Source: Chromera velia (taxonomy: Eukaryota). From it: a DNA stretch of 59,634 nt. Location of the stretch: the NCBI GenBank assembly GCA_018398765.1, contig JAHBMJ010000008.1, positions 1-59,634 of the forward strand, in the 5' to 3' direction. Made by a program: the position numbers and the translations under genes. The notes under the pieces are model-generated. The model was given only the letters and a program-made list of their open reading frames with translations. It did no database searches and was not told the origin of the DNA. Shown here piece after piece: positions 8,484 through 59,634 of this stretch; position 1 is the first letter of the stretch; each line of letters opens with the position of its first letter.

Positions 8484-8514
<31 letters not shown>

Positions 8515-8580: not shown

Positions 8581-8623
<43 letters not shown>

Positions 8624-17330: not shown

Positions 17331-17443
17331 CTGATTGACTGCCTGGTTGGCTGGCAAGAAAGGGTTGAGGTAAGCCCTTCCCGATCGTGTGGTTCTGGAG
17401 ATGGCTGCAATGAAAGAGAAACAGAGGCCGTGAAAAAGAACGT

Positions 17444-17455
17444 GCTCTGCTACCA
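17444..17455 (-). promoter_or_regulatory. Primer-binding site (initiator tRNA-Met type)
   Basis: Minus-strand TGGTAGCAGAGC next to the 5' LTR, complementary to the ...CTCTGCTACCA 3' end of eukaryotic tRNAi-Met. Confidence 0.85.
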
Positions 17456-17459
17456 CTTT

Positions 17460-17881
17460 TGTTGGTATGGCTAGCGTGACGGCAGCGTAACGACTATCAA
17501 CTTACGTGTAAAGTCTGTGCATCACTGGTTCGGTTCCTTCTTCCACTTTGTTTGTCTTCGGACATTGCATCACAAAACTGTCATACATCTTACTGTCCAT
17601 CTTCTAATCTCATTTATTTGCATTTAATTCGCATCTTCTGTATTTCATCTGTCCAATACAGAAAAGGAATCTGTATCGTCATTTCTGTATGACTTCTTTT
17701 CATTTATTGCAATACAGTTTGTTTGTTTAATTCCGTATAACACATTCAAGTGTTGTTTGGAAAGTGTTGCATGGCTCGTGTGCGCGGCGTGCATCAATCA
17801 CTCCGGTCCTCCGGGACCGCACTCCTCACGTCCCCTTAGCCCAGAGCGTCACCCCGGCCCGCTCGCCTCTGAAGCCTAACA
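17460..17881 (-). repeat. 5' LTR of the Gypsy element
   Basis: TGTTGG...CTAACA, direct repeat of 11137-11558. Confidence 0.95.
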
Positions 17882-20597: not shown

Positions 20598-23500
20598 TCA
20601 TCGCGGCGGTGTATCTGATGTTTCACCCCCTTTTCTCTTGTCTCTCGGCCTCCTGCCCATGCGGGGAGACTGGCGGAACGAGTCGAGGGTCTGACCCCCA
20701 CTGTAGAAGCGGGAAAACGTTTTTTTGAAAGGAGCTCCGTCCGCTGAGTTTTCCCCATCCTCCGCATCATCGTCATCTGGGTTGTTGCTTTTGCTTTGAC
20801 AGTCCGATTCCGAAACTGGAAAAGGATTTTCAGAGGCGGCAAGCGGGGCCTCGTCAGACGCTTCCGATCGTCGAGCGTTTACACTCACACTGTCGGCTGC
20901 AACCATCGCTGCAGCACTGTTTGCCGCACTCGATTCTCGTCCCTCCTCCTGCCTTTCAACTTTTTTCCCCACACCCCAGAGACTCCCGAAACCTCTCCAC
21001 AGATCCTGTGGCAATCCTCCGACCCCCTCTGCTTGTCCGCTTTCCTCTTTCTGTTCGAGGGCCCGGCGCTTTTTGAGCACAGAGAGCGTACCCACGTTGT
21101 TCGTTTGGGGTCGGCTTTGGGCGCTGCGGAGGATGAGATCCCAAACCTGCAGGCAAGGCATGCATACACGATGAAGAATGGGTTTGTCTGTCTGGCGGGA
21201 GAGAGGGACACAGGGAGGCAAGAACTTTATTCAGAGAGAGAGGCACCGGCTTTGCGCTTTGTTGTGTGTATGCCGAATCGGCCCTTCTTTTTGTGTGTAT
21301 GCAAAACTAAGACTGGTTCTGGTGGGCTATGTGAATGAAGCCTGGACCGAGTGGGCGGGTCCAACAAACTGGTGTAAAGGGGTCAGACAGAGAAGGGAGA
21401 AATGACTTGAGCGAAGACTGCACATGCAATGAAGCTTTCCTTCCGACTCAAAAGAAACCAAACAAAAGCAACCTGCATGCAGATAGAGAGAAAACAAAAG
21501 ACTGCACATGCAATGAAGCTTTCCTTCCGACTCAAAAGAAACCAAACAAAAGCAATCTGCATGCAGATAGAGAGAAAACAAAAGACTGCACATGCAATGA
21601 AGCTTTCCTTCCGACTCAAAAGAAACCAAACAAAAGCAACTTTCATGCAGATAGAGAGAAAACAAAAGACTGCACATGCAATGAAGCTTTCCTTCCGACT
21701 CAAAAGAGACCACAGAAGAACAGAAAGCGGCAAGCTCGGGTGCTTGAGAAGGATTGACATCCAGTCAGAAAAAACTGCCAGAAAGAGAAAATTAATGAAT
21801 TGGGACCCAGACTCAAGCAACACAAAAGGATAAAATAAATGAGTTTTCGACGTTCGGGATGAAAGAAAAAGCGTACCGACCGCATCACCCTTGTACATCC
21901 GCCTTGCCTCCATCTCCAAAAAAATTTGCCACACCTCATCCTGTTTGCCCCCCCTGCTGCAGGCCTTCATTGCTAACACCAAGGTCTCCCGAGTGATACC
22001 AAGACCCCCCGGACCCCCACCTCTCAGCTCCCGAATCAACAACAAAGCACGCCCGCCCAACCCCCTCTCAGCGCAGATGCGCAGGAGGGCGTGGTATGCA
22101 AGTGTCGTTCTCTTGTGTCCCTCTCGCTGCATTCTCTGAAAGAGCACAAACGCGTTTGCAGAGAAACTCCCATCAGCACTTTCCTTTTCCTGCCCCTCCA
22201 ACCCCTCATGAGAACTGGGAGCATTCCCTCTCTGACTCAAGGGCCCGCACACCGCATTGGCGCACGCAACTATGGCCCAAGAATACGTCAGACCTGTTGG
22301 AGAAACGCCTTCGTGTGCCATCCGGTCTAGGAGAGACATTGCCGTAGAGGCGTCACCTCTATCGGCGCAAACAGCGATGGCTGCTGTGTAAGTATCGGCA
22401 TCCGGTTGCATGACTCGGGACTTCAAGTCCTCGAGAACAGCAACAGCCTCTGCGGAAGGCCGACCTTGTGCACGAAGCACCGAAATCAATCCGATGAACG
22501 CCCCCCTACTGGGAGCCCGGGGGGCTTTTTGATCACTACACAGGCCGGTGTACTCACTCAGGAGCATCTTTGCTCTCTCTGCGCCATCAGGCGCTGTCCT
22601 CTGTGCATATATGGACGCTGTGTAGGCAGCGGAGGAAGGCTGCTGACCCAGAGCGGCCTCCATCTTCCTGAGGAGCGTGACCGCGGCAGGGCCCGCGGCA
22701 GGGTTACGTGAAGCAGCTACAGCGCGAAGGGCGGAAAGGAAGTGATCAGCTGTTCTAGGAACTCCGAGGCGCTTCATCTGGTCAAGTACATTGACCGCCT
22801 TCTCCCACGCCCCGCCCTGCCTGCACGCTTCCAGCGTAATGGCAAAATCCTGTACGTCAGGAGTCACCCCCACCTCTGTCATACGATCCAGCAGCGTACA
22901 AGCGAGGACAAATTTTCCATGGATCATGAAGTTGTAAAGAACGCGCGCGTAGTCATCATGGGCCCTCTGACGTCCGGTTTCCGGCGTCTCCTCATTCATG
23001 GCTTTGAATACGCCCATGATGTTTCCCAACGTTTCTCTGCGAAATCTCTTGAGACCCGGAAAGAAACGAGAAGAACCCGGTCGGCGCCGCATAACCACCA
23101 CGCCACCTGAAGAGACACCTCCTCTCGCTGTTGAGGTACCATCAGGTGAGGTGACGGCTTCGGAGGAATGGAGAGTTGTCTCCGAAAATGTGTGGGAGGG
23201 GTCTAGAACCGCTTCCTCCTGTCCGTCCATCAACTTTTCCTGGATAGCTCCGAACTCCTGCAGGCAGGCAGGCAGGCAGGCAGGCAGAAGACAGATTAAA
23301 AACAGGCGACGCGGATGACTTGCTGACAGCCTATGAACATGCATTCGGCATGAAACTGCTTGCTGCTCGTCTGCCCTAAGAAAACGCCCCACGCTCCCCC
23401 CCACACTGCGCCGAGCGACTCACCTGAAGGAAAAAGTCCCACTCTAAAGAGTCACTTGAAGGATGGCCAGAATGAAAGCTGATTGGCGGGCCCCGTCGAG

Positions 23501-29890: not shown

Positions 29891-30459
29891 GGGTATGAGA
29901 GCTAGGTACAACTGTGAGTTCCCTCCTTGTAACTTATTTCTCGGATGCTCTCAGACACCCTAGTCAAAGCAGGAGTCTGACCCCCTGACTGTCCACATGG
30001 TTGCCTGCTGAAGCCTCAACTGTGCCCCAGTCTGGTGACATTGCACAGGTTTGCTCAGAGGGGACTGCTTTGAGTGGTCAGACTCCTGATGCCTTTAGGG
30101 GGGAATGTAATAGTAAACTGACCGCTGGTGGTAGTGGGTGTCCCTCCATGACTGGGGCCAGCAAGGACCCGACCTCTGACTTTCTCTTACCCCCGCTGAG
30201 ATCTGATGGTAGCCTAGTAACGACGTTGATTGCAGGCCTGGCAATGGGCACAGCCATCGGAGGGTATCGAATGGAGCGGGAAAGCCCCCCACCCCACATG
30301 ACGATAGCCATCCCCTGTCTGACGGCCAGTGAGGCTCGTGAACCCCTAGCAGACCCCCAGAGAGGTTTTCTGGGAGACTCGGCAGGCGGACCATCGTGGT
30401 GTGGACTCTCTGTGTCTTGTTCTGAATTGTCTGATGGCTTCTCTGTGTTCGATAGTTGG

Positions 30460-33400
30460 ATGCTGGCCATACTGTGTGTGAATGTCTATGGACTGTCCGA
30501 CCGCTTGCAGTGTCCCCACTTCCGGGATCTCTTGGACTGCATGGACATCCTCGTATGTACAGAGACGCGCATGCTGTCAGAAGAACTCCACTTGGACACG
30601 CATTGGTGCCTGAATTTCCCGCACTACCATGAAACAGCAGATGATCTCACTAGGTTTACAGGGGGGGTAGCCTTTTTCGTGAATAAACAATTGTGCCCAG
30701 AGGTCCCAAGAAGCAATGCAATTGGCCCTTCTTGCACCTCAATCAGGTTTCCAGCACCTGCTGAGCTTGCCCAGATCCCCGCAAATCCCCTTTGTGACAA
30801 AGCCCCTGTAACCGAGGCCCGGGTGTTTACAATTGTGGGTGCTTACTTTCCTACCTCTTCTGCGCAGCGTTACGTGGGTGTCTCCTTAGACACCCTCTAG
30901 GATGGGATCCAAGGGGTCCTAATGTCCTCGCAAGCTGACTTCAGAGTCTTGTGTGGGGACTTCAATGCACACACGGCCAACCTTTGCACCAAAGTCCCCC
31001 TCCCGTCGTTATCAGACAACGCCTTTATGCCTCATGCCTCTGACCACATAGCCCTAGCTGGTAGAGAGCAGCGTTCAGGTCCCCCTCTCTATATCCAGAT
31101 CCAAAGGGACAGTAGAGATCGCAGGAGGCCAGACCCACAGGAGAAAACCCTTATTGACAGGGCGTCAGAATGTGAACTGACCATATTGAATGGGGTAAGA
31201 CTCATCCCTGCTGTTCAGCCCCCCCTCCTATCATGCCTGCTCCCCAACCCTCCTGCTATTGATGGTGCTCCGATCTTAGGACAGAGCTGTGAACACCCGT
31301 CTATGACTCAGAAATCACCCGAAGAGAGCCGTGAGGACCCTCTCCTGGGGTCGGCCCTGTGGGACCCTTGTCCGTCGTCTGCCGAGCACACGTATTTCCG
31401 AGAAGCTAGGGTTTCGGTTGTAGACTATATCTTCGTCAGTACAAACCTTCTCCCACTCCTTCGCTCCTTCTCCATCAGAAGGGACAGGGAGATAGCACTG
31501 GATCACACTCTCCTCTGCGCGGGGTTTGGGCAAGCTCAGGTTGTACGGCACAGTGAATGCCCAGTTGCAGAACCTAGGCGTCCAGGCCCCCCCCAGGGGT
31601 CGGACGAGTATCAATAACGGTCTAACCCGCGCTGTTCACAGCATGAGCAACGAGTCCCACTTGCCTCCTGGGCCCCCGCCTACCCTGCCTGAGGGGTGGG
31701 AATTCGCCTCCTACCTTCGTGGCAGCTGGCCAAGGCCCGGTGCCCACTGCCCTGTCCCGACTTTCGATTCACCAGGATTTGTCGATGCGTCAAACAAGCT
31801 GTGCTCCTACCTGAATATCCGTAAATCTCTCTGGATGGGCCTAGATATAGGTGCAGTGCAGCCCCTCCCCCTACCCGCTGGCATGGAGCAGGGGGATACG
31901 ATTGATTCCATTTTCTCCGGATGGTTTCAGGCAGTATGTTGTGAGGCAGGTGGCCGTCCCCCCTTGGTTGCTCCCTGTCCTCCTCCTTTGAACTCCGAGA
32001 GCCCATCACCACCTCCCAGATGTGTTACTCCACCTAACGATGAACAAAGGGGGGTATCTGCGGGGGCGACTTGGAGGGTAGGAAGAAGGTCCAATGTGCC
32101 CCAGAACAGGCCCCCGATTCTCCGACCACTCCGATTAAAGGTGCGGTGGTAGGCAATTGAAGTGAGGAAACAAAAGGCGTTGTTGTTGGCTCTCGGACGA
32201 CTTCCTGTAGGGTCCAGCTGACCGTTACACCTTGTCATCGCAGAGACCCACAAAAAGTACAAGGAGGCTAAAACAGCGTACAACCGAGCCTTATCAGCTT
32301 ATGTGAAGTCGGAGGCAGTGGAGCGGGAAAGAGTGCTGCAAGCAGAACTGCAGAAAAGTCCACAGGGAATCTATGAACTACTCAGAGACCTCTGCAAACG
32401 CGCAGCAGCAAGGTTGATGCCCTCTCGTGCCGACGATGGTACGTCAGCTGCCCCTACAACACAAGTCCCCTCCCCCTGGGCTTTTGCTGAGCACTTTGCT
32501 CAAGTATTCCGCTGTCCTGAGGAATCCAGTCCCGAGGAATGCTGTTCAGGGCCCCTTCCGATTTCTTCCTCTCTCACAGCCCCTGGCATATCGGTCTCAA
32601 CTGTCTCACAGAATGCCCGTGCCCCTCCTGTGCGAGGCTTGGCGCCCTTGAGCACGGAGATACCCCCATCACTTCAGGGGTCCTTTGCCCCCCTAGTGCC
32701 ACCGCCAGGTTTTCCTCCCCTCTCCCCCCTCTCAGACCCCCCCCCCCAACCTGAGGCTTCCGACCCCAGAGCCCCGTCTAGTGCATGGGAAGCTACTGGT
32801 AGGGTATCGCCGTTCCCGGATCTCGAATTCTTCTCTCAGGAGGAAGTAAAGTCCTGTCTAAGGGCTAGTAAGAAAAAGAAGGCGGCTGGCGTTGATGGGC
32901 TAGTGGTTGAGAACCTGAGGAAATGGTCCCAAAACCCGCTCTTCGTAGCCTCAGTCACAGACGTGTTTAACGTCTGCCTTGTAGAGGGCAGAATTGCGTC
33001 AATCTGGAATAGATGTCTTATCTCACCGGTGCTGAAGCCCGGGAAAGACCCGGAGGACCCGGCCTCCTACAGAGCGATCCATCTGCTTGGACACCTCTCG
33101 AAGATGTTCAGCTCACTCATTGATCAGCGATTGAGGAAGATTGTTTCGCTTTCCCGGGTGCAGTTTGGATTTCAAAAGGGTAAAGGTACCAGGGACGCTC
33201 TGTTCGTTTTCAACCACATCCTTAAGAAGTATCACTCCCCAGGTATGCATTGTGTTTTTATCGACTTGAAGCAAGCATTTGACTCGGTAGGACATAAGCG
33301 TCTGTGGGAGTGCTTAAAGGATGAGGGGGTCCCCCCTCATTGGGTATGGGTAACACCGTTGTTCAAGGTATGTACACCGACGTGTGGGCAACGGTCTGTC

Positions 33401-35955
33401 AACCTGCCAGTGAGGGTACGCAGAATCGGTGTGTAGCGGGCTTAGCTCCCACTGCTGGCAAGTTTTGGTTTAGAGAGAGCGTTGGGGTCAAGCAGGGCGA
33501 TCCATTCTCACCACTGTTATTTAATCTCTTTATAAATGACCTCCCGTCTTTTATCGCTGACCGACGTCTTACGGCCCTGCCAAATAGGACTGGGCCATCC
33601 GATCAGAATCTTCAACCCCCCCTCTCGTCTTCCACTCTCCCTCCAGCCTTGCTGGCAGCTGTTTCGTCTGCCTCCTCTTCGTCTTCCAGTCACCCGACTT
33701 CCGCCAAGGTTGGGGTTGGGCCTTCTTCTGACTTCTGTGAGCTTGAGTGCCTCCTTTACGCTGATGATCTCGTTTTGTTTCACCCAGACCCAGGTGAGCT
33801 GACTTGCATGCTTGATCGTTTGTCTGCCTACTGTTAGAAGAACGGATTATCTGTGAATGTCTCAAAGTCATACTCGTTGTTTGTGGGGGAGGAATGGAGT
33901 TTGGGCGAAAGGAAGGTCTTTCTCTTTGGGGGGAAAGTCATACAACGTTGTTTGGAGTTTAAATATCTGGGTGCAATTTTCAACAGGAATAGGGCAGTCA
34001 GTCGCGCTTTTGAAATGCATCTAAAAAAAGGGAAGAGGAAGGTGTTTGCATTACTTGGGGAACTTACACTGCTTGGCAAGGTCTTTCCGGGGAGGTTGAT
34101 AACAATATGCAGGACTGCAGCCTCGTCAGTATTCCTCTATTCGGCGGAGACAGTGGACTTGTCCCCTCGACAACTGCATCTTATTGACGACTTCTGGTTA
34201 AGCCTATGCCGGTCCGAGGTTGGCTTCCCCCAAACCTCCCCAAGGATTCTCACCCTCCTTCAGTTTGGTATCCTGCCCGCAGCCGCAACCCTAGCAGAAA
34301 GAGCGCTCAGGTTCCTGTGAGGAGTGGCGCAGAGGCCAGTGAATGACCTAACCAACCTCGTATATAGATAACTGTGTGAGAGGCGACAACTGGCTATCTT
34401 GGACGACTTTGTTTCTTTCGTTTCGTCCTGTTGTCTCGTAGTAAAACTAGACCGCGCTGATGTGCTTCCACAAAGCCCTTTGTCTTCGAGTATGGTGATG
34501 TCATAGGGGGGGGAGCTCTTTTCATCGCCGATGGGTGGTGTGCAGAGAAAAGTCTGGGAGACGGCAACTCAACAGACAAATTGGTCTTCTCCGGGCGTCC
34601 CCCCCCCTTTTTTCGTCTTACCTCTGTCTCTGTTCCCTCCTTATGGTTGCACATACCTTTCCGATGCCTCGTCAAGCAGGTTTGCACGTCTGCTGTAGCG
34701 TCACGAGCCGTGGCCGCACTTTGAAAAACCGTCCCCCCGTTCCTACCTTCTGGAACGCTCGCTTCCTTTCCAGTCTCGTCGAGTTATCTCTCTTTTCCGA
34801 CTGGGGATCTGCCAGACCTCGGCCAGGACGGCCTTGTTTAGAGGTATGACGGCTTTTTCCCCCCTCGCTCGCTGTTCATTTTGCAAAGAACGAAACCTAA
34901 CGACCCCACCGCAAGATCTACCCATCGGTGATGAGCTTCACGCTCTTTCTGACTGCCCGGAATTTGACTCTGCTAGAGATTGATTCCAGCAGGTCCTGCG
35001 GGTCTCGCCGAAAGCGAAGTACTTCAGCCTCAGCGCACTCGACCGCAGCGAGATATTCTTCATCAAAGTCCTTGTCCCACTACTTTCTGAACGCCCTGGA
35101 TTGGTGGGGCGAACGTTGGTAGGGATCAACGAGTCTTTAATTCGCAAACGAAGAGACATAACGAGACAGGACACCCCTTCAGATGGAGAAGATGTGGGCC
35201 GACAGGGTTTGCCAAATCGGTCTGCTGGCACGGGGGGGGTGAGGGGCACAACGTCTGCTAGACAGTCATGTCAAGCCATCGTCATTCAGGGTCAGAGTCT
35301 TCCGATCCTCTCTTCAACGTCTGCAGCCCCCATCCAAGCCAGTCTGCTGCATAGAGTCGCCGCTAAATCAACTCTTTCTGCAGGCCGGCGTTCCACCATG
35401 TTGCCTGCTGTCCGGTCGTTAGATGCCCACCGTTCAGGCACTTACCCGCTTCCCCCCCTTCTGCCACTGTCACAAGTGTCAGTTGTCTACACGGATGGCG
35501 CCAGCCGCTCTAATGGTACACCGCATGCGAAGGTGGGTTATGGAACATATTGGGGTCCTGGACATCTATGTAACCTCAGCTGTAGACTCAAAGGTAAGCA
35601 GACAAACAATCGAGCCGAGCTGAGTGCGATCATAGCTGCACTTGAAACTGGAATTCTCTATGGTCCTCCTCGCACGCTGATAGTCAAATCTGATTTGTGG
35701 TATGCTTGCCAAGCCCTGGAGTCATGGGTTTCGCGATGGGAAAGAAATGGTTGGAGAAGACCTGATGGAAACTTTAAGCCAGTGTGCAATCAAGATTTGA
35801 TTGGCAAGTTGGTCAGCCTTATCAATGAATACGAATGGGTACTGGGGGGGACTGTGTCTATCCAATAGGTGAAGGCGCACAATAAAGAGCCTAGCAACGA
35901 GGCAGCAGATGCTCTCGCTGTCAAGGATGCGTATCTTCCCATCCCTTGTGCGTAA
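30460..35955 (+). pseudogene. LINE ORF2: AP endonuclease, reverse transcriptase, CCHC finger, RNase H
   Basis: APE: NVYGL, DILVCTETR, GGVAFFV, LCGDFNAH, VDYIFV, LDH. RT: AAGVDGL, QFGF, IDLKQAFDSV, GVKQGDPFSPLLFNL, YADDLV, KYLG. CSFC..DELH..DC finger. RNase H: YTDGAS, TNNRAEL, KSD, *VKAH, NEAADALA. Confidence 0.93.
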
Positions 35956-42748: not shown

Positions 42749-45700
42749 ATGCTTGCGCAAGTTCTCGCAATTGTCCTCCTGGACAGTGAGGGCCAGAGGA
42801 TTGCGGCAAAATACCACCAGAAAAATGAGGCCTTTTCCGACTTTGTGGCACAACAGAAGTTCGAGAAGCAACTGTCTCAGAAACCCAACAGACGAACAAA
42901 CAGGAATGAAGGTGGGTGATTCTGATGCTCGTGCAGGAGTGCTGAGTCGGGTGCAAAAGTTGTGAGTGCATGTAGAGGAAGGGATGGTGAGGGGTTGGGC
43001 GGGTTCATCGGTCTACACATGCACGTCGCCAGAGAGCTCGCGATCCATGCCAGTAAATTTGGTGAAAGTGTATCTGATTCTCTCGCGAGGCAGCTTCAGC
43101 GTCAGGACGTTCCTGGGTCTGATTTTTGGGTTCACGCTTCCTCTTTTTTTCACATCCGTTCATTCTTCCCTTCTTTGCTTTTCTCCGATCTTTCCCCTCT
43201 TCATTGTTTCCTCCGCTCCATTTTCCACCTCCATCCGTGCCGCCTCTTCCCCCACTCTTCTTTCTTGACTTTTCGTTTTTCCGTTACCGTGCTTCTCAAT
43301 TGTTCGATTCAACTCGCTAGTATGTACCCGTACATTCGCCCACCAACAAATGCAGTTGAGGTTGTAACGATCGACGACTTTGTGGCACTCTTTCGGTCCT
43401 CCAATGATGTTTTCCTTTACGTCGTTGGGGACCCCGCGGAGAACGAGGTGATCGTCCTGGAACTCGTCAACGCACTCCACCAGGCCTTGACGAACATATG
43501 CGGGTGGGTGGATAGGTGGGCAGTTGGTCCTGTGGCATGCATACAAAGTTATTATCTCTCAAGACCCCCAGGCAGCAATGCGAACCCCTTGGCATGCTAG
43601 TCGATGGGCTCTCATTAATTAATTTCTTTCCGTTGCCTTCTTTTCTTTTCCCCGCAGAGGTGGTATCTCCAAGAAAAGCTTGTTCGACAATTTGGATTCC
43701 GTGTTTCTCTTGTTGGACGAGGCCACTGACGGAGCGTAAGTCGACCCTCCCTCTCACCGGCAGTGCTTGCCCTTTTGCCTGTCTTGATCTGCCGGTGAAA
43801 GAAAGGAGAGAAAAGGAAACAGAGACTGTCTGTACGTGTCTGCCCGAGTTCAGTAGGAAAAGGAGAAGAAACGGACAAAATGATCCACCCTGTCGCACAG
43901 TCTGTTGTCTTCTGTTTGGCGGTTGTCTGTTCTCTGTTGTGTAAGTGAAGAAAAGAGGAGAGGGAAAAGAAAAGAAACATGTAGTATGTCTCTCTGTCTG
44001 TTGTTTTGTCTGATGTTATCTTTACTGCTTATCTCTCTTATCTTGTGGAAGTGATGATTAGCGTGTGACTTCCAGTGATCACGTGAAAACTCGCAAACGC
44101 AAGGGGCACCTAAGTCTCTCATGTCCTTCGGGCCCCCTTCCCCAGTGTCTGTCTGATCGATCCTTTTGTCCGTCCGTCTGCTTGACCGGAAGACAGAAAC
44201 AAACATACGGGCTGTCCATCTCTTTGTTTGAGCCTTCGTCGAGTTTCCTCTTATCGCGAAAAGTGTCGTCGGGGAAGCACCGCAACGGAGGCAAAAGTCT
44301 ATTTCCTCGGGCGCACCTTCCACGCTGTCTAGCTCTGTGTCATTTCTTCGCGTGACAGTTTGAGTTCTCTCCCCTTTTTTTCTTGGCTGTGTGTTTTTTT
44401 TCCGCGTGGTTCTGCTGTCTGTCTTGAGATTCTCTGTCATTGTCTGTTATGCACGAATACATTGTCGTCTTTTTGTCCGTCTTGGTGTCCGCCGTCTCTC
44501 TGTCTCTGTGTCAAAAGACAAAATGAAGTCATGTTGCCTGCCTGAAGTCGCAAAGCGTACTTGTCTTAATGAAAGGAGAGGAAGAGAAGTCATAAAGCCT
44601 TTTCTGAAGCAAGAAAAAAGGAAAAACAAAAGGGAAGAAAAGAACGGTATTGTCTGTTTGTCGGTCTGTCTGTCTGTCTGTCTGAAAGAAACCAAATAGT
44701 CTGTCTGTCCAAGTGAGCAAGAAGAAAAAGAAGAAGAAGAAGAAGAAGCAGCGGAAAGACATCAGATGAGATCGATTTTCCTCGTTTTCCCTCTTTTTCC
44801 GCTATGACGGAGAGGTGGGAAAGAATAGCACGCGATTGTTTTGTCGTTGTGACCGGGAGCAGAAGGAAAGCCTGCCGATTTAGCTCTCTGTCGTGCTGCA
44901 TGTATACGGGATTCAAAGGCTCCCACATGCATACAGAGGGAGCGAGAGCAAGAAAGATAGACACACAGGGTTGTCTGTCTGGATGCCTTTGGGAAATGAA
45001 CGTTTCTTTTTTCACGGTCTGCATCCATCCAAAAATTCTGGAAGAGGGCGGACTAGGAGAAAAAGGAAAGGCGTGACGTCACGGCTTCGTGCTGCTTCAG
45101 TTGAGGAGTAATTTGCATCTCCGTGTCCTCTCTTGGAGTCCCTCCCCCACGGAGACCTCAAATTCCTCTCCCTGTCCAAATCTTCTTTTCTTCTGCAGAG
45201 TGATTTTTGAGACCGAACCAGGACTTCTTCAGCAAAGGGTTCACATGAGCGACGGAGATCTTTCGGTGGACAACCTGACCTTCAATCAGGTTAGTCTTTT
45301 CTTTTCTTTCAGAAGATGGCAGACAGAGAGTTTCTTTGAAGTCAGCTGAAAACCCTTTCCTTTCAGTCGGGGAAGTAAGTACTTGAGGCCTTGATAAGAT
45401 CCTTTTGTATTCCGGTGTAGCTTGACGACCGACAGGCGTTTCTTTCCTTTGTGTAGCTTGCAGTTGGTCTCTTTTGTGTGAGTGAAGTGTCAGTTCCTCT
45501 GTACTCGAAAGCAGTAGTGCCATGAAAACGGAGAAAGATATCTGCCTACTTTCTTACTTATGAGAGAGAAGGGCCGATTTGTTTTGATACCGAAACACGC
45601 ATAATTATAGAAGAAGAAGTCATTGGAGGCAGCTGCGCATTGTTGGTTGCATGCGTCGATTGTGTGGACTTGTAGATACACCGTGCGCGCACACGTCTGT

Positions 45701-49275: not shown

Positions 49276-51559
49276 AAGAGAAATGGATCTGACATACTGC
49301 GAACACCACGCACTGCAATGGAACCGACGAACGCAACTTCTCCCTCACACCGCACACTCTTCGGCCTAAACTTGCCCTCCCACAAAAGTCGGTGCTTCGA
49401 CCCCATCTTCAAAAAAAAAATCTTGCAGTTCGATGAAAGGAAGGAAGGAAGCCAAAACGAAGGGCTCACTCATCCCAAGAAACGATTCTATGGGGGGACT
49501 TCTTGACAATGAAGACGAACCGCGGTAGACGGAGTTTCATACCGATGTGGCTTCCATGTCTCTGTCGGCATCTATCGTTCTCTTCCTTGGCTGCTTATTT
49601 CAATCAGTACTTGACGAGATTCCTTGACTAACGGTTTCGGACCTCGCTCACTGCATACACTAGATTCCCTTCCGGCCACGTTTCCCGTATGAAACAGGAA
49701 AGAGAAGAAAAAAGAGAAAGGACAAAGGAAATCAATCAAGGGACAGTGAGTGACCTCTCGAATACATTCGTTAGGGTCCTTGGTCTCAGACAGATAACGC
49801 TGGACGTGCCACCAGACTAAGCAGCACTTCCTTGCCATTGTCTTGCGAGTCTTCACCTTCAACCTCTTCACAACCTGCACGCTCTCAACACATGCAGAAA
49901 TAGAAAAGGAGCTGCAAGAAAGAGAAGAGACACGGAGAGCCGACAGAAAGAAGCATCTGATGACAGACGGAAGAGAAAACGATTGAAATCATGATTAGAT
50001 AAAACAAAGCTTCTTTCCCCGCTTCTAGCTTTCACTTTTGAACTTCCTCGTTGAGCGACTAACTGTGTTACGGTTATCCTCGCTCATGCTTATGCAAACA
50101 GAAAGAAGCATCTGGCCACCGAATCGTCCAGAAGCTCGCGCCCGAAAGTCACTATGTTTCGAATGGAATCCGTAAACTGCGGAGAAAACTCCTTCACGTC
50201 CTCACACATCAACCCACCTTAAACTCCATCCAGTACTCATAAAACTCAGATCCCCATAAGTCCGTCATGTGCGCAGACGTAAAGAGTTCCAGCTGCTGGT
50301 CCGGAGTTTCAAGCATCTTCTTGAGAAGGAGATTGTAGTTGGCGTCCTCCTTGAACTTTCTCCCGAGATCTCTTTCAATTCTTGCCTCCTCCTCCACAGG
50401 GTTGTAAAGGAGGTTGTCTGAAATGTGACTCGTGTCGTATCTGCAGTAGAAGAACACTTGTGTTTTATCAATCTCTGTGTGTGTGCCTGTCTGCCTTGCT
50501 CACTGCCCCCCGCCCCGCTTCCTTCCTCTCTCTCCTTTGCTTCTGAAGCGTGCCCCTCCCCCTGTCTTTGTCTAGTCCCCTACATTTCTCTTGGTCCGTT
50601 TGTCTCTCTCGTGCCCCCCGCCCCCCGACGCTGACAAGTCGCCTGCCTGCCTACTTTTTTGCATCAGGAAACCTGCCTTGTTTTATCAGGAAACCGACCT
50701 TTGTGCATCAGGAAACCTACCTTTTTGCATCAGGAAACCATGATTCCATATCGTCTTCGTATTCCTCGTCCACCATGTACACGTACTCGTCGTATCTGGT
50801 GGACAGCCCCTCGATCTGAGTCCCCGCCCTCCCCTCTTGTTTCTTCGCATCCGTCTCCTCTTTTTCCTTCATGATCTGCTTCAGCTTGAAGACCTGAGAC
50901 CGCGTCAGTTTGATCTTCACGGCCTCAGGCAGGTCCTCCTCGTCCCTCATCAAGTTCAGGCGCTGCTGTAGCCCGTCAGGGTTCTTCTTCACCTCGCTGT
51001 TGACAAAATTTTGAAGAAACAGACGCTCGACGGCCGTCATATTTCCAACAGGCATGGGAAGCTCCACGTATTCATCGCCCTTCTTACTCTTTCCCCACAC
51101 AACGTCCACCCTGTCACCCTCTGCCGACATGGCCCCAATCACTCTCGACTCCCCTGGCATTAGCACAGGGGCTGCTTCTGCTCTGGGCTTGACCTCTGCT
51201 GACTCTTCTGATGGAGACGGCGCTGCAAAGCGGGGAGTGACCTGCTTCTTGCATTCGGACAAGAAGGAAGAGACGGCATTGCCTCTACAATGGCGTCCCA
51301 CCCCTGCAAAGAGAGTGCAGCATATGGAAAGATTCTTGACAGCTGCAGCTCCTACCAGACCGATCTGTTGCATGCACCTGGTGCAGATGAAGGCAGGTGA
51401 GAAGATGACAGCCGGAATTGCGAGAGACGGAAAAAACAGTCACGTACTTGCGAAAGGGGCGTTGAGGAAGGCCAGTCCCGTCTGCCTGCTGTCGAGGGTT
51501 CCGCCCAACCTCAAGGCTGAAAAGAAAAACGCGGAAAACAAAACGCAAGCTCGTGGCAT
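47901..51559 (-). CDS. Multi-exon hypothetical protein with hydrophobic leader (possibly plastid-targeted)
   Basis: Exon 1 MPRACVLFSAFFFSAL..AFLNAPFA splices in phase to ~51302-50720; further GT-AG-bounded coding blocks at ~50441-50218, ~49875-49755, ~49160-48965 and ~48640-47901; no domain recognised; middle exon boundaries uncertain. Confidence 0.6.
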
Positions 51560-52362
51560 CTCCTTTCTCCAAACAGTCATTCCGTCTCGAGCCAAGAAAA
51601 AATCGTTCCAGGCTGCACAAGGCACGCAGCCTTATCGCGGAAGCTTACAGGCAAGGAGAGACACACTGAAAGACAAGAAAGTTGGAGGGTTTACCCCTAA
51701 CCGATTCACATTTACTACATACGAAGATGAGTTTCCGCTGGCAAATATTTGCTAGTGGCTCATTTGATCACACATTATGCGTGGTCGAAGCTGTTCATGC
51801 GGATGTGAACTTTCCACGTAAACCGATCAATCGGATGGCTAGCTGTGCTTCCCGGATGGCAGTGAAGGAATCCGGCAGTCTGCACGACTGGTCACTGAGA
51901 CAATCTGAGACACCAAAGCAACAGTGTGGAGACGCCGTGAAGTTGGAGCTTGACCGAGCTATCATGCACATGCAGATGTTTGACGGGGCCGCAGCCCGCG
52001 CCCGCGGGACGCATGCGCGAGGTCTTAAAACGCGAAATCTGACCACAATCTCACCCGAGTATTTTTCAATGTTTTTCCGGGGCCGCACATTTTCAGAAAG
52101 AAAAATGGCAGCTGGGGCACTGAGATGATCTGAGATGAGCTCCTCTATAGCTCAGGCTGTCAAGGTGCCTTGCTGCCTGTGATTGTCTGTGTGTGCCGCC
52201 TGCTGTCTGTCGGTGAACGAACGATTGGTCACAGCTGCAGCACCAGCCTTTCAGTCGACCTCTCGTTCAGGCTTGAAGGTCCACTTCATTGCTTTGTGTT
52301 TGAAAGAAAACTTTTGCAGTCTCAGTTCCCCACCAACTTGACTCAAGTCATCAAAGCAGTCA

Positions 52363-55300
52363 ATGACAGGGTCCTTCACTGAGTTCTGGAGCCGACCTGG
52401 CGTCGGCTCCGAGCTTGCCAGCTCCTTCCAATGGCCAATTTTGATCTCTATTTGCGTTTACATTCCGGTCGTGATGGGGTTGGTAAAGTTCATGAAGAAA
52501 AGAGAGGCCCTGGAATTGAAGTGGGTGAGCCTCATCTGGTACACGGCCCTCTCTGTCCTGTCAGGGATGGGAGCAGGCATGATGGTCAGCTGCTTTTTCG
52601 AGTAGCTTCTCTGGTGCCCCAGTCGAGGTTTTTTCTGTTTTGCAGCTGCCGGAGCATCTTCCTTCTGTTCTTCTTTCAAGGTGATCTATCTCTGTTTTAT
52701 ATCTCGTTCAGGTATTCGACGATGCTTCTTTGTTGACTCGTGCATTTGAGCCCGAGGACAACTACAAGGTGAGCGACGGATGCACTTCTCGGCTCTTCAT
52801 CTTAAGCTTGGAAACCTCTCTTGTGTTTGAGTTTGGAAGTAAGAGAGCTAGAGAGACGCGCAGGTTAGGCAAGGACAACAAAATGATGTTTGTGCGGTGT
52901 CCTTGTCGTTTAGAGAAACGAAAGAAACGCGTGCAAGCAGCGTGCTCTTTTCCTTTCTTCGATGGCGCTCTCGTCTCTGATCTTCTGCAGTCCGCCGGTC
53001 GTGTGAAGATGTCGGCACTTCGTTTGTTCTTCTCTAAGCTTAGTCACCTGTCGTTCATGTCGCGAAAAAGAAACTCCATCACTTCAAAGTGGCTTGATCC
53101 ATGGCGTGAACATTAGTTGGCGTGCGTACGTGTGTTTCCTCTGCAGCCCGCTACTCGTGCCGCTGTCGCCCTCTTCTGTCTGACGAAGACTCTGGAGTTC
53201 GGCGACACCATCCTCCTGGCTCTCAAGAAACGCCCAGTCTCCTTTCTTCACTCTTTCCACCATTTCACAGTGGTCAGTCAGCACAACAATTGCACCTCGT
53301 CTTGCGGCTCTTAACTCCCGGAGGACTTGCATTGATGAAATAGATGTCCCAGAAAGTCACAATTGCCACACGTACGACATTACGCACGCGGTCATTGAAC
53401 AGCGTCTAAGGAGACGGCAATTATGCATGAGTCGGCTTACGAATGACAGCCGGTGAATCCTTCCAGCAGAGCACATGGGGGATGGATGTAGTGAGAGAGC
53501 TGAGTTTCCTCTTCCGCCCCTTCTCGCTCGCAGGCACTGTACTGCTGGCATGCCCAGCTGGTCAACGTTTCCTTCGCACACCTCTTCGTCCTCATCAACC
53601 TGTGCGTCCACGCGACCATGTACGGCTACTATGCCCTCTCGGTCGTCTTCAAGGGATCCAGAGGGAGTCAGGGCATCGCTGGGGCAATCTGCGCATGCCT
53701 TTTCACCCTCCGCCCCTACATCACCTCTTTCCAGCTTGCGCAGATGTTCGTCGGCTCCGCAATTTCCTGGTGCGCTGTCCACGGTCAGGCGGGGATTCTG
53801 GTCAACGACGTGGAGAAGAACAACGCCAAATGGTCAGTCGGGGGCGTAAAAACTGCAGAGTCGACCGAAAACGAGAAAAGACATGAGCAAGTGAAGATCT
53901 GTCGTCCTCTCTGAATGTCGTCCTGCATTGCTGTTTGATGTGTGAAAGTGCCCCAATTGTTGTCGTCTGCAGGGCTCTCGCGATGTACGTCTCGTATGCT
54001 GTCCTTTTCGGGCATTTCTACGTGAGGAGTTACTTCAAGGGGTACCGGGCGGCGATGACGACGCTGATGGCCTCTTTCCACGCCTTTGCGCTCTACGGAC
54101 TCTTCATGGTGGCCTGGCACGACGCCAGAATGCGCCTTCTTGTCGAGGTCTGTCTGCGTATCAGTCAGTCAGTCAGTCAGGGAAAAAAAGAGAAGGGAAA
54201 AGAAAGAAGCCTATGATCTATCGGTCAGCAGTCCAAGTCCAAGGAGGCGAACATTTTCTTTCCTTTTCAGCGCAAGACAGACACCAATGCAGATTTTGAA
54301 CGCCCCTAGTATAGTACGGGTCTGGTCGGGAACCCCTCTTTTTGCAGTCTTGACACACACCCGCATGGTTTCAGTGAGGGAGCGCAACCCAACCACTTAC
54401 AAAGACACTTGGTGAAGCTTGCAGGATGACATCTGTCGAGAATGAAAAATGAATGCTGCGTCAAAAAGAATGGGGGCTGTGTTTGACAGACCTAACCTGA
54501 CTGATAATTCCCTCACGTCCGTGCATGCATGCATGCAAGCAGGTGTTCGTCATGTGGCAGATCTGTGGCTTTGGAATCACTGTGGGCGCACACAGACTCT
54601 GGGCGCACAGGTCCGTCCGTCTGTCTGCAAATAACGCCGTTAAAAAAAAAGGGGGGGAAGAGGTGTGCAACGCATGTTTCTTCCCCTCTCTCTCGCATCT
54701 GACGCTAGTGCCTGCCTGCCTCATTGGCTTGGGGGTAAGTGCGCATCCTCTTGGTTTTTCCAGTTGTACCAGACACAGTCTTTCCCTTTTTCCTGCAGTC
54801 TTCCCCTCCTCTTTCTGTTTGCAACCGTGCCGCAAGGTATGAGGAGTGAGTCTTCATTGACGGACAATCGTGCCCAACTTACGGAACACCGTCTGTTTGA
54901 AGCATGCGTATGCATCTTTCTCTCTCCCCTCCTGCCTCTGCACTTGCAGGTCTTTTGAGGCGAAGCTTCCAGCCCGTGTATTCCTGATGATTCTCAACTC
55001 CATCGCTTCTCAGGTCCGTCCGTCCCTCTGTCAGTTGGTGAGGCAAATGCACGCACAAATACATATGTGTGTGGATGTTTATACGCGGTCCAGAAAACAG
55101 ATACGTAGGAGGGCAGGCATTCAGAACGGAGGAACCGACGCCCCTTTTGCTTGATTAAAAAGAAAACAGGAGAAAGACGGCAGAGAGGGCTGCACGAATT
55201 CTCCACCTTAAGTGAGTTGCCTTCATCTTTCTTTCTGTATTCGAAGATGCTGGTTCTGCGTCCGTTTGGATTGTCGGAGACAATGTCGGGGCTGGCCGGG

Positions 55301-56404
55301 CAGCGAAGGGTTTGGTGAAACACGCCTCCCTTTTCTTTGCCCCTTTACTGCTTGTCTTTCTTTGCAGGGCTCCATTTTGCACTGGGCAAGAGACCACAGA
55401 ACACACCACCGCCACTCAGAAACTGACAAGGACCCCCACAATGCAAAGAAGGGTTTCTGGTCAGTCGCAGGCAGGCAGAAGAGAAGGGAGATAACCGGCG
55501 GGCACTCTCTCTTCTCTCTGCTTTGCAATGTGCCACCGCTCTTTCTCTTTTATTAATATTGTGGAAGGGGTGGACAAGAGGGAAAGCACGGGAGCGAGAA
55601 GCAAGTTGTGGTCTCCCAACCCAAACAAGCGCACAAGAGAGAATTCAGGACGAAAGAGGGAGCTGCACAAAAGGCCTGCGTCATCTTTGACGGTTCTTTG
55701 TTTCTTCCCATTGAGCCCGCGCTTACCGTTGCTACAAATTTCAGACCAACAAGAGACAAGGTTAGGACGATGTGGTCATCGGCTCCCACCGTGCTTCTGT
55801 CTGTACAGGTACGCACACATGGGCTGGCTCCTTCTGAACAAGCCGGACGAGGTGAAGCACGCAGGAAGAGAGATCGACTGCAGGTCCGTCTCTCTCTCTT
55901 TTCTCTCTCCAGTTTTGTTTGTGTGTTGATGCACCTTCTGCAGAACCTGTGCTGTCTTTTTCTCCGTCACCTTCTTTTCCCTTTTGTTCTCCCCTTCGCG
56001 CGTCTTTCTTTGTATCTTGACTTTGGAGGGTCTCTGTGGGCCTGCTTCCCTGGCCGCGTTTCCTTTCACAAAGGTTTGGAACGTGTACAGGTCGGTCCCG
56101 ATTCCGACTTTTTTTCTCTCTCGTCCGACCCTGGCTTCCTTCCCTGATTGCTGTGAGACAGAGACAGAGAGAGAGACCCTGTTGCATGGATGGATGCATG
56201 CAGAGACCTGTACGCGGATCCTGTGGTGATGCTCCAGAAGAGGTTCGATCCCTGGTGGAACTTTTCCTTCTGCTTCCTTCTCCCGGCTTTTTATGGCTGG
56301 GCTGTCTACGGGTCCTTCTGGCTAGGCTTCTTCGTCCACGGGTGCCTCCGCTGGATTGTTGTCCTCCATGCCACGTGGTACGTCTCTCTTTCTCTCTCTC
56401 TCTT

Positions 56405-56438
<34 letters not shown>

Positions 56439-56462
56439 TCTCACACACACACACTCACTCAG

Positions 56463-56496
<34 letters not shown>

Positions 56497-56507
56497 TCAC
56501 TCAGTCA

Positions 56508-56558
<51 letters not shown>

Positions 56559-59500
56559 TCCTCACGGGTGTGTAGGTTTGCGGAATGTGTATGTGAGGGC
56601 GGTGTCCGTTTGTCCATCCGTTCGGTTGGGGGGGCGTCAAGATGATTTCAGCAAGCATGTCCCTGTCCGTTTCTGACTCCTGTGAACTGAAAGAATCAGT
56701 GCGTTGATATGTCTGGTTGTTTCTTCCGCGCGGGCAGATCACTGAGTCCATGCAGTCACTTACTTGTTCTTTCCCTCCGATGTGGCCTTTCCTTTACGCG
56801 TCCTCGTGCGTGCAATGCCTGCAGGTGTGTGAACTCTGTTGCTCACTTGTGGGGAGACAGGCCTTATGACCCGAAAAGCAACCCTGCAGAGAACGTGTGG
56901 GTGTCTGTGGGTGCCGTCGGGGAGGGCTGGCACAACTGGCACCATGCGTTCCCTTTTGACTATGCTGCTTCGGAATTGGGTCTTTCATTCCAGTGGAACC
57001 CATCCAAACTTCTCATCGACTTCCTCGCAGCCATCGGACAGGTATGTGAGGAGGAGAGTAAAGGGGGGGGTATAGAGAGAGGCAGGCAGGGCCGGGCTGT
57101 CTAGACAGTCAACGAGTGTGGGTCGAAACAATAGGGGTCTGGTAATGAAAGCGGGTGTGTGTGTGTGTGTGGCTGTACATGTGTGTATCTGTCTACATGT
57201 GTGCGCTTGTGTGTAATCGTGAGCGTTCTTGTCTCTGATTCCTTTCTCTTCGCAGGTCACTCACCGCAAGCGTGCGACGAAGCACTGGCAGTCAATTGTC
57301 AAGAGCAGAGAGGCGCGTGCCGCACGGCTGCAGCATCAGCAGACAGAAAGCGAGAAGGATACCGCAGATGAAGAAGCGAGCAGCAGCTCGCCCTCTCTCA
57401 CTGTCAGCGAACCGGCGAGCGAGCCCTCGAAGGAGGAAATCGAGGAAGCAGCGGATGTTGACACAGGGTTCGAGACCACAACCACCTCTCAGGAAGGGGG
57501 GAAACGCGAGGGAGTATTGGGAGGGGTGCGAGTTGGTGGAGGACTGAAGAGAGTTCCTTCCAGTGGCGACGTCCCCTCGATGGTCCCCCGACCCTCCACG
57601 TTCACCTCGCTCCTCTTTCTTCTCCGCGATGCATCCGTCTGCGGGCTCATTGCGGCATTTGCCCTCTCATTGGTCCTCTTTGCGGACGTCCCTCGAGTCA
57701 GTCAGTCAGTCAGTCTCTCATGGAGCCGGGTAGCTAGACATCAGCCGGCAACAAAACCAAGAACTAAAATGCGCCAGAAAAGGGGCAGACTCGCTAACGG
57801 AGGCCGTAGCGTCCCTCTGTGTTGCAACGTTCATTTTTCACTGGCCCCTTCAGCAACGAAAGACATTCCAAAAGTGCGTTCTTTGTAATTGGCAAGCTGG
57901 CTGCCTGCCCGTCTGTCCTGGACCGTCTCGCTCTTGAAGTAAAATGTGAACAAAACAAACTGAAAAAAAAACCATGATGTTCCTGCATGTGCCTGACTGA
58001 CCTTCATTGCAGGTTTTGCACGGACCTCTCTGGGCCCTCTACGCGGTTGCTCAGGGCACTGTCTGTATGGGACTTTGGGTGATTGCGCAAGAGTGCGCCG
58101 CCGGAAGGTTCACATCCCGGTTTCCTCTCGTCAACCACATGGTCGGCTTGGTCGTCTCCACAACGCTGCTGATCCCCTACAGGTCGGTCGGTCGGTCGGT
58201 CAGTCAAGTCGTTGAGAGAGGAATGGGCAACTGGGGATTGTATCTGTCCTTCTGTCTTGTTGGGGGAGTTCTAGTCCCCCTGAGCGGTGCGTCGGTCATC
58301 ACATTGCCTTTCTTTCTTGGCTCTTGCTTTTGTTTTGCAGGTACGGACTGAAGCAGCAGCTCCTCGAATCCGAAGGGAGATGGGGAATTCTGCCTGCCAT
58401 CAGGGAACAAATTGTGGCACTGCCCCGACTTCCGTTGACCGTCTTCGTCCGCGTTTTCTCCAGGTTCCACCAGCACGCAAGACTGCCTGTGATCACCCTT
58501 CAGGAGACCGTCAGCCTTGCCGCCCTGTCCGCACACGTGGTCTGTCTTTTCCAGTTCTCCCGCGCCTTTGGTGTGACCTCCTTGTCCCGCTGGGTCGCGG
58601 GTCCATGGATCGTCTTTCAGGCGTGGCTGGGTGTCTACTTCGTTCTTCTCTCGGTGAAGGACGAGAAGGTTCGTTCGTTGGCAGGGAGTGGAGGTTTTTC
58701 TTTTTTTCTCAATTTGCCTTTCTGTCGGTCCTCGCAGGATGATAGATTTCGCTGCACCGTGTGTGTGTGTGTGTGCCCTGTATCTCTGGAGACTCGTTTT
58801 CTTCAAGCGGGGCATGACATGAGACGCACAGCTCCTGGGTCCTTCCTGATCGGGTGTCTAGTTCCTTCCTTGTCTTTCATTGCCATTTCTTTTCTTTTTG
58901 TCTGCATGTGTCTGCAGGTCCATTCCCTCGCCTCTGCTGCTGAGGAGAATGAGAGAGAAAGAGAAACCGTGGCCTCTCCGGCTGCTTCCCCTTCGCCTCT
59001 CGCGGTCGAGGATGATCCCGAGGAAATCTTCAGATGGAGATGGATCAAGGCGTCTCTCCAGGTATGCGTGCCACCGCGGTACAGCCTAGGCTTCTCATTA
59101 AGTTGCTTGCATGTACGAAGGAAGACCGCATGCGACAACCTGCATGCATGCATATGCCAAAATGAATCAACAACCACTCGAGGGGTCAAGCGGTGATTGT
59201 CAATCAGTCTTTTGTTGGAGGAGAACGCTGTGTTGGTTGTCTCGTTCACATTCACTTGACTCATCCATCCATGTGCGTTGTGTGTCGTCGCAGATTGCTC
59301 TTCCCTCCTCGACACCGGTGCTTCCCTCTTTTTTCGTCCACTTTCTGGAGTTTGTGCATCACAACCTCCTGAAAGTGCATGCCTTGCACTCTGCAACGAA
59401 AACAAAGGTAGATAAAATGTCTCACAATTGTTTCGTTTCCTCTTTCTTTCTTTCTTTCCTTCGGGGAGGGACTGAATGGTCCCGTTTGATGATCGAGTCG

Positions 59501-59634
59501 CCTGTGTAGATCTGTCTGTCTTCGTGGTTTGACAAAACCCAAATTCATTCCCTGCCAGCTTTTCCCATTTCCATTTTCTCACAAAAAATACTGCCAGCAG
59601 CAGGAATCTACACGCTGATATAATGAACGTGTGT
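52363..59634 (+). CDS. Fusion of ELO fatty-acid elongase, delta-9 acyl-CoA desaturase and degenerate delta-12-like desaturase; at least 15 exons, runs off the right edge
   Basis: ELO: KTLEFGDT, FLHSFHH, NLCVHATMYGYY, TSFQLAQM, LFGHFY. Delta-9: GITVGAHRLWAHR, DHRTHHRHSETDKDPHN, NSVAH, GEGWHNWHHAFPFDY. FAD2-like: SLLFLLRD, LWALYAVAQGTVCMGLWVIAQEC, NHMVGLVVSTTLLIPY. Confidence 0.88.

What the first reader, a model, noticed from the sequence alone, without database searches (positions are those of the whole stretch)
52363..59062. Elongase, delta-9 desaturase and delta-12-like domain in one polypeptide
Seen: both junctions lie inside single open exons. Exon ~53973-54147 runs from the ELO end (LFGHFYVRSYFK) into the desaturase first helix (FHAFALYG). 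Exon ~57256-57696 runs from the delta-9 end through an acidic linker into a FAD2-like start (STFTSLLFLLRD). ELO and delta-9 His motifs are intact. Known: these are normally separate ER enzymes acting in the order 16:0, 18:0, 18:1, 18:2. Inference: a substrate-channelling fusion in pathway order; I cannot check whether it has been reported.
Basis: partly seen in the sequence, partly recalled or inferred. Interest (0 to 1): 0.75.

Follow-up and report, generated by a model that had tools for sequence, protein, structure and literature searches.

The report
Elongase–desaturase fusion with dead third domain
This alga, a relative of malaria parasites, makes one spliced message for a single protein that joins a fatty-acid elongase, a delta-9 desaturase and a likely inactive remnant of a delta-12 desaturase; intact three-enzyme versions occur in virus-like DNA, and the remnant likely explains the unexplained tail on the desaturases of related parasites.

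Summary
The fusion is real. Sixteen GT-AG exons (52363-59407, then beyond the window) give one open frame identical to Chromera velia Cvel_14249 and to a 997-aa transcriptome ORF; single spliced contigs cross both junctions in 4 of 5 runs (2 studies). The elongase and delta-9 domains keep their catalytic motifs and fold like ELOVL7 and SCD1. The third domain is FAD2-like but keeps only 2 of 8 iron-binding histidines, so it is likely inactive, and the proposed 16:0-18:0-18:1-18:2 channel fails here; neither hand-over would be direct anyway. The architecture is old and widespread: the dead third domain persists in Vitrella, gregarines, coccidia and a haemosporidian desaturase, likely explaining the C-terminal extension reported for Plasmodium SCD. 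All three domains are intact in intronless genes on giant-virus-like contigs and in haptophyte transcripts. A 2020 paper lists this gene as both elongase and desaturase; I found no paper describing the fusion family. The scan earlier noted a different viral elongase fusion. New variant of known enzymes; interest 0.62.

The parts
52363..59407 (+). Gene (Chromera velia Cvel_14249), 16 coding exons in the window: 52363-52584, 52712-52768, 53147-53272, 53534-53832, 53973-54147, 54543-54610, 54950-55013, 55368-55459, 55809-55883, 56204-56377, 56825-57041, 57256-57696, 58013-58182, 58341-58668, 58918-59061, 59294-59407; continues past the window (997 aa in all)
52429..54042 (+). ELO (GNS1/SUR4) elongase domain, aa 23-258
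   Evidence: Pfam PF01151 E 7e-48; model matches ELOVL7 6y7f_B Z 23.2, rmsd 2.6, 233 aligned
53249..53263 (+). ELO HxxHH motif, H128/H131/H132, intact
53973..54147 (+). Junction exon 1: last ELO helix runs with a linker of about 5 residues into desaturase helix 1
   Evidence: helices 227-255 and 261-283
54061..57285 (+). Acyl-CoA delta-9 desaturase (SCD/OLE1 type) domain, aa 265-533; H310/H315, H347/H350/H351, N454/H458, H487/H490/H491 all present
   Evidence: phmmer to mouse SCD1 E 1e-74; Z 31.6, rmsd 2.5, 275 aligned
57319..57561 (+). Acidic linker (about aa 545-625), predicted disordered for 567-620, specific to this species in the alignment
57562..59407 (+). FAD2/omega-6-like domain, aa 626-about 960, likely catalytically dead
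   Evidence: profile of 29 intact FAD2-like domains: E 2.5e-16 for a search size of 1e5; Atlas features: FA_desaturase/delta-12 clusters, score 0.90-0.91; fold Z 16.6 to 8xks_K and 8xqw_M, 8.6 to AlkB
58088..58102 (+). Degenerate FAD2 His box 1 (QECAA in place of HECGH), aa 696-700
59378..59392 (+). Partly kept FAD2 His box 3 (HALHS), aa 913-917, in the exon that the 884-aa annotation and the finding omit

Best explanation
The gene is spliced into one message for a 997-aa membrane protein that likely works in the ER as a two-activity enzyme, an acyl-CoA delta-9 desaturase plus a fatty-acid elongase condensing enzyme, followed by a FAD2-derived domain that has lost most iron ligands and likely serves a structural or lipid-binding role instead of making 18:2. 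Shown: exon structure, single transcript contigs, domain order, motif status, spread of the architecture. Inferred: both N-terminal activities; that the fusion keeps the two enzymes together and co-expressed; that any direct hand-over would run desaturase to elongase (16:1-CoA to the 18:1n-7 precursor, both using acyl-CoA; C. velia contains 18:1n-7 and 18:1n-9, PMC7464705 passages), not elongase to desaturase; that the protein descends from an intact ELO-delta9-delta12 ancestor and is the orthologue of the large apicomplexan SCDs, in which the elongase has often died as well.
For: Fusion. Motifs: in alignment A1 (21 proteins) all delta-9 ligands are kept in 21 of 21; the ELO HxxHH is intact in 10, broken in 10, absent in 1; of 16 with a third domain 5 have all FAD2 boxes and 11 (chromerids, apicomplexans, two unnamed Logan proteins) have no His in box 1. 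Three discrete folds in the model, mean pLDDT 79. The dead domain is kept at 23-30% identity to Chromera across Vitrella, Selenidium, Lankesteria, Cardiosporidium, eimeriids, Toxoplasma and Besnoitia, and is detectable in Hepatocystis SCD (E 5e-7) and an unnamed look-alike P0267 (E 7e-10; best reversed control E 14). Delta-9 tree: chromerids, Digyalum, apicomplexans and the virus-like fusions form one clade, 100/99. Precedent for a non-catalytic desaturase fold: FAD6a in the Chlamydomonas import motor has partly conserved His boxes, no iron density and a bound fatty acid (10.1101/2024.09.02.610899, passages); the best fold match of domain 3 is a chain of that complex (that the chain is FAD6a is my inference).
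Against: No activity is measured. The Chromera ELO has Tyr for the TM2 Asn that the other ELO domains printed keep, and strain differences fall 5 nonsynonymous to 0 synonymous in ELO against 0 to 2 in the delta-9 domain (very few sites), so the elongase may be decaying. Four ELO-delta9 proteins (Rhytidocystis and relatives) and a second Vitrella paralogue lack the third domain altogether, so it is not always needed. One origin is not fully shown: the ELO tree joins virus-like and myzozoan domains only weakly (82/72), the FAD2-domain tree separates dead from intact domains on long branches, a Diplonema-labelled delta-9 with another N-terminus sits inside the clade, and no clade test was run. 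Transcript evidence is assembled short-read contigs, not long reads.
Confidence: 0.75

Rival explanations
1. Only the delta-9 desaturase is active; the elongase is already a non-catalytic appendage, as in Toxoplasma and Eimeria.
For: ELO HxxHH broken in 10 of 21 aligned relatives; TM2 Asn replaced by Tyr in Chromera; 5 nonsynonymous, 0 synonymous strain differences in ELO.
Against: KxxExxDT, HxxHH, NxxxHxxMYxYY and TxxQxxQ all intact; 54% identity to the Vitrella ELO; confident ELOVL7-like model.
Confidence: 0.13
2. The third domain is a functionless relic that is slowly eroding.
For: Long branches; absent from 5 of 21 aligned proteins; box 2 region deleted.
Against: Open frame, helix pattern and the same residual motifs (TM2 G-T, LxPY, a His pair before box 3, V-P-x-Y) are kept from chromerids to haemosporidians; much of it models at pLDDT 70-95.
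Confidence: 0.2
3. One reading: three active enzymes channel 16:0 to 18:0 to 18:1 to 18:2 in this organism.
For: Domain order matches the pathway; intact three-domain relatives exist (11 of 356 representatives examined).
Against: 2 of 8 His kept in domain 3; no Pfam FA_desaturase hit for domain 3; C. velia has separate omega desaturases (PMC7464705 Table 5); neither hand-over is direct (established biochemistry, recalled; PMC5037126 passages).
Confidence: 0.04
4. Adjacent genes joined by gene prediction or assembly.
For: Only short-read contigs were available; in run X1 the transcript is in several contigs.
Against: Junctions inside exons; single contigs in X2-X5 from 2 studies; same architecture in many lineages and in intronless ORFs.
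Confidence: 0.01

Closest known systems
Cvel_14249.t1 in Tomcala et al. 2020, PMC7464705 (passages and tables seen; supplements not read)
   Same: Same gene; listed both among S/MUFA elongases (Table 4) and delta-9 desaturases (Table 5), predicted ER.
   Different: The passages I saw do not call it a fusion or mention a third domain; the 884-aa model lacks the last 113 aa.
Apicomplexan large stearoyl-CoA desaturases: PfSCD PFE0555w (PMC2731242, passages), TgSCD TGGT1_238950 (PMC4870972, passages)
   Same: ER delta-9 desaturase with long N- and C-terminal extensions; PfSCD is 949 aa with 18 predicted membrane spans. Toxoplasma, Eimeria and Hepatocystis proteins align with this one.
   Different: The extensions are unexplained in the passages seen. 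In Toxoplasma both flanks are dead (ELO relic found by an iterated profile, E 4e-7 for a search size of 1000); in Chromera the ELO looks intact. The P. falciparum sequence itself was not retrieved; Hepatocystis stands in.
SCD1/OLE1 acyl-CoA delta-9 desaturases (PDB 4ymk, 4zyo, 6wf2)
   Same: Fold and all metal ligands.
   Different: Embedded between two other membrane domains; no fused cytochrome b5.
ELO/ELOVL elongases (PF01151; ELOVL7, PDB 6y7f)
   Same: Fold and motifs.
   Different: C-terminus continues directly into a desaturase; TM2 Asn is Tyr.
FAD2/omega-6 methyl-end desaturases, and FAD6a of the Orf2971-FtsHi motor (10.1101/2024.09.02.610899, passages)
   Same: Sequence and fold resemblance; like FAD6a, His boxes only partly kept.
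   Different: Fused to an active-looking delta-9 enzyme; FAD2-like rather than FAD6-like by the local profile.

Membership tests
ELO/ELOVL elongase | Pfam PF01151 above its curated cut-off | tested here: met
   163.7 bits against 27
ELO/ELOVL elongase | HxxHH, KxxExxDT, NxxxHxxMYxYY, TxxQxxQ motifs (motif list recalled) | tested here: met
   a further conserved TM2 Asn is Tyr
ELO/ELOVL elongase | Condensation of acyl-CoA with malonyl-CoA; chain-length preference | not testable with these tools
   needs an assay
Acyl-CoA delta-9 desaturase (SCD/OLE1) | Three His boxes plus TM4 Asn/His | tested here: met
Acyl-CoA delta-9 desaturase (SCD/OLE1) | SCD1 fold and sequence | tested here: met
   E 1e-74; Z 31.6, rmsd 2.5, 275 aligned
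Acyl-CoA delta-9 desaturase (SCD/OLE1) | Delta-9 activity on acyl-CoA with cytochrome b5 | not testable with these tools
   shown for PfSCD in parasites according to PMC2731242 passages, not for this protein
FAD2-type delta-12 desaturase (active enzyme) | Homology to FAD2-like domains | tested here: met
FAD2-type delta-12 desaturase (active enzyme) | Eight His in three boxes | tested here: not met
   box 1 0 of 2, box 2 0 of 3, box 3 2 of 3; TM4 Gln-His lost
Apicomplexan large SCD orthologue group | Delta-9 domain groups with apicomplexan SCDs | tested here: met
   one clade of 26 of 62 hand-picked rows, 100/99, midpoint root only; haemosporidians not in that tree
Apicomplexan large SCD orthologue group | Haemosporidian C-terminal extension is a dead FAD2 domain | tested here: met
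   E 5e-7 and 7e-10 for a search size of 1e5, three colinear stretches
Apicomplexan large SCD orthologue group | Haemosporidian N-terminal extension is an ELO relic | tested here: inconclusive
   9.7 bits for P0267 (best of 202 shuffled or reversed controls 4.3), nothing for P0268; low-confidence model
Substrate-channelling multifunctional enzyme | Intermediate passed between active sites without release | not testable with these tools
   needs kinetics or isotope dilution

The most novel reading that the evidence does not exclude
An ancestor of chromerids and apicomplexans had a single-chain elongase / delta-9 / delta-12 enzyme for making unsaturated C18 fatty acids. Giant viruses captured it and still carry it intact in one 870-aa gene, while in the line to Chromera, Toxoplasma and malaria parasites the delta-12 domain (and often the elongase) became a conserved pseudo-enzyme that binds lipid and scaffolds or regulates the desaturase, which explains the 18-helix parasite SCD.
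Probability: 0.45. Interest if true: 0.8.

Novelty: new variant of a known kind. Interest (0 to 1): 0.62.

Why it matters
It gives an origin for the unexplained extensions of apicomplexan stearoyl-CoA desaturases, a proposed drug target, and points to a conserved pseudo-enzyme domain that host SCDs lack. It shows that ER elongases and desaturases, treated as separate enzymes, are naturally fused in several orders across protists and virus-like contigs; a family survey that kept only 350-550 aa proteins (PMC5037126) would have missed them. The intact three-domain genes make coupling between these enzymes directly testable in yeast and offer one-gene modules for engineering oleic/linoleic acid synthesis.

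Tried and rejected
No whole genome is held for the window. Pfam FA_desaturase gives no hit on the full protein at E 0.01 and only weak hits on two delta-9 exons; local profiles were used instead. My first FAD2 profile was contaminated by a protein with another domain order and was rebuilt. A search with a third-domain region found only 3 proteins among 607 candidates. No fused form was found in IMG/VR: 0 of 5 loci and 0 of 80 listed loci matched outside the delta-9 core; phages gave 2 single-domain hits. No run is on record as RNA; the contigs lack the introns. A hydropathy count was too crude to use. The model of the haemosporidian-like P0267 was unreliable outside the delta-9 core (mean pLDDT 57). 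Literature: searches listed no paper whose title, abstract start or read passages describe an ELO-delta9(-delta12) fusion; the library lacks most subscription papers, and the supplements of PMC7464705 (Figs S1, S4) and of the bioRxiv preprint were not seen and may bear on this. One search found nothing. Neighbouring sequence in the window shows no linked lipid genes among ORFs of 150 aa or more (read by eye).
Full report
Observation. Reading 51000-59634 and fixing splice sites by GT-AG gave 15 exons to 59061 with an open frame of 884 aa and a 16th exon at 59294-59407. A search with one delta-9 exon found a 100% identical protein, P0002, whose cluster holds Chromera velia Cvel_14249.t1 (884 aa) and a 997-aa MMETSP transcript ORF; the latter matches my model at 922 of 922 residues and adds 75 residues that the window does not encode. 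Contigs of five coded runs from two studies lack the introns; 13 of 15 introns show as GT..AG joints, the other two are bridged by contiguous contig coordinates, and single contigs run from the elongase into the third domain in X2, X3, X4 and X5, while X1 is in pieces. These are assembled contigs, not long reads.

Anatomy. Residues 23-258 are an ELO domain, 265-533 an SCD1-type delta-9 desaturase. An AlphaFold2 model from a 21-sequence alignment (mean pLDDT 79, pTM 0.57) has three units: 11-257 matches ELOVL7 (Z 23.2), 256-541 matches SCD1 (Z 31.6), 625-946 matches chains of the Chlamydomonas Orf2971/Ycf2-FtsHi motor (Z 16.6, rmsd 3.7, 244-248 aligned) and AlkB (Z 8.6). ELO and delta-9 are joined by about five residues; an acidic, predicted disordered linker precedes domain 3. 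All ELO motifs checked and all delta-9 metal ligands are present; one conserved ELO Asn in TM2 is Tyr. Domain 3 is FAD2-like by a local profile of 29 intact domains and by language-model features, but box 1 reads QECAA, box 2 is deleted, the TM4 Gln-His is gone and box 3 reads HALHS: 2 of 8 His. Since these His bind the di-iron centre (established knowledge), it is very likely inactive.

Relatives. Searches and look-ups show a family. Vitrella has the same intact-intact-dead layout. Selenidium, Lankesteria, Cardiosporidium, eimeriids, Toxoplasma and Besnoitia keep the dead third domain and have a broken ELO motif; Rhytidocystis and three similar proteins have intact ELO plus delta-9 and no third domain; Digyalum (a squirmid, recalled) has delta-9 plus an intact FAD2 with only a short N-terminal piece. 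Hepatocystis SCD and an unnamed look-alike carry the dead FAD2 domain; an ELO relic at their N-terminus is inconclusive. Gratraud et al. reported unexplained N- and C-terminal extensions and 18 predicted membrane spans in the 949-aa P. falciparum SCD (PMC2731242, passages); the C-terminal one is likely this domain, though I did not retrieve that sequence. Among 356 cluster representatives held, 51 had an ELO-like domain before a delta-9 domain and 11 had all three domains intact (the set is biased to delta-9 hits, and its thresholds miss the eimeriid third domains and the most decayed ELOs). Four of the 11 are about 1200-aa proteins with an extra degenerate desaturase-like unit at the N-terminus, one in a cluster with Pavlovales records. 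Seven are 843-884-aa metagenomic proteins; matching loci hold intronless ORFs on gene-dense, 34-41% GC contigs beside Erv1/Alr (Pox E10-like), thioredoxin, XRN, RNase HII, nuclease, ABC1 kinase, collagen-repeat and DUF5760 genes, and one neighbour's closest relatives (3 loci, 68-73%) are IMG/VR contigs, two of them over 200 kb. That reads as giant-virus DNA, but the fusion itself was not found in IMG/VR, so the viral label is inferred. Other orders also occur: ELO-degenerate-delta9 in chlorarachniophyte and Mataza records, degenerate-delta9-delta12 in euglenids.

Trees. The delta-9 domains of chromerids, Digyalum, apicomplexans and the virus-like fusions form one clade (100/99; 62 hand-picked rows), apart from haptophyte, euglenid and chlorarachniophyte fusions, which suggests repeated fusion elsewhere; one Diplonema-labelled delta-9 with another N-terminus falls inside. 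The ELO tree joins virus-like and myzozoan domains only weakly (82/72) and the FAD2 tree splits dead from intact domains on long branches. A common intact ancestor is therefore likely, not shown, and the direction of transfer to viruses is untested.

Mechanism. The most likely reading is an ER protein with two active sites and one pseudo-enzyme domain. Head-to-tail fusion fits the usual topology (ELO C-terminus and both desaturase termini cytosolic; recalled). Direct channelling in gene order is unlikely: ELO makes 3-ketoacyl-CoA, which needs a reductase, dehydratase and enoyl reductase before desaturation (recalled), and delta-9 enzymes of this class use acyl-CoA while methyl-end desaturases use phospholipid (PMC5037126, passages). 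The one direct hand-over available is delta-9 product to ELO, which would give cis-vaccenate; C. velia contains both 18:1n-7 and 18:1n-9 and has separate omega desaturases (PMC7464705, passages). The dead domain's persistence in parasites argues for a non-catalytic role; FAD6a of the chloroplast motor, with partial His boxes, no iron and a bound fatty acid, is a precedent (10.1101/2024.09.02.610899, passages). Against: the domain is missing in 5 of 21 aligned proteins, and the Chromera ELO shows small signs of relaxed constraint.

What is known. Tomcala et al. 2020 list Cvel_14249.t1 in both their elongase and delta-9 tables without, in the passages I saw, calling it a fusion; database Pfam tags already show ELO with FA_desaturase on many hits. 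Eight searches listed no paper on the fusion family, the dead FAD2 domain or the intact virus-like genes; PMC13486548, PMC6668581 and PMC4870972 (passages) do not describe it. The scan's notes hold a different giant-virus elongase fusion and nothing like the virus-like protein by sequence.

Verdict. Observation confirmed and extended; interpretation partly supported. A new variant of known enzymes with a real evolutionary story and a clear yeast test; interest 0.62.

Noticed in passing
L006:2744-5362, L007:2164-4779, L009:6214-8853, L010:42-2675: Intronless 872-880-aa ELO-delta9-delta12 ORFs on giant-virus-like contigs; the matching proteins aligned (P0154, P0155, P0159, P0164) keep all His boxes. 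Possibly the more striking member of the family.
   Followed up: partly
L010:3028-3972: Next to the three-domain gene lies a second fusion, ELO plus a cytochrome b5-like domain, cut by the contig end.
   Followed up: no
proteins P0008, P0024, P0051, P0093, P0110, P0113, P0190-P0223 group: A second kind of degenerate desaturase-like unit (FAD6-like by recalled motif) is fused before delta-9 domains in chlorarachniophyte, euglenid, haptophyte-like and many unnamed proteins.
   Followed up: partly
protein P0220: Yet another order: intact FAD2, degenerate unit, delta-9, cytochrome b5 in one 1008-aa chain.
   Followed up: no
proteins P0177, P0188: Delta-9 domain fused behind a SAT-like (PF16073) domain; P0177 is labelled Diplonema yet groups with the myzozoan clade.
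   Followed up: no
window 52552-53780: Runs of study P1 differ from the window at five ELO codons, all nonsynonymous, against two synonymous changes in the delta-9 domain.
   Followed up: partly
window 11800-17500 (-) and 29989-35868: LTR-retrotransposon-like (integrase, RT, RNase H) and non-LTR RT-like ORFs, read by eye.
   Followed up: no
window 6313-10327 (+), 21383-23419 (-), 42926-43600 (+): Exons resembling SAICAR synthetase, a PPR protein and a coatomer small subunit (recalled resemblance).
   Followed up: no
window 50717-51000 (-): An upstream gene on the opposite strand, divergent from the fusion gene; not identified.
   Followed up: no
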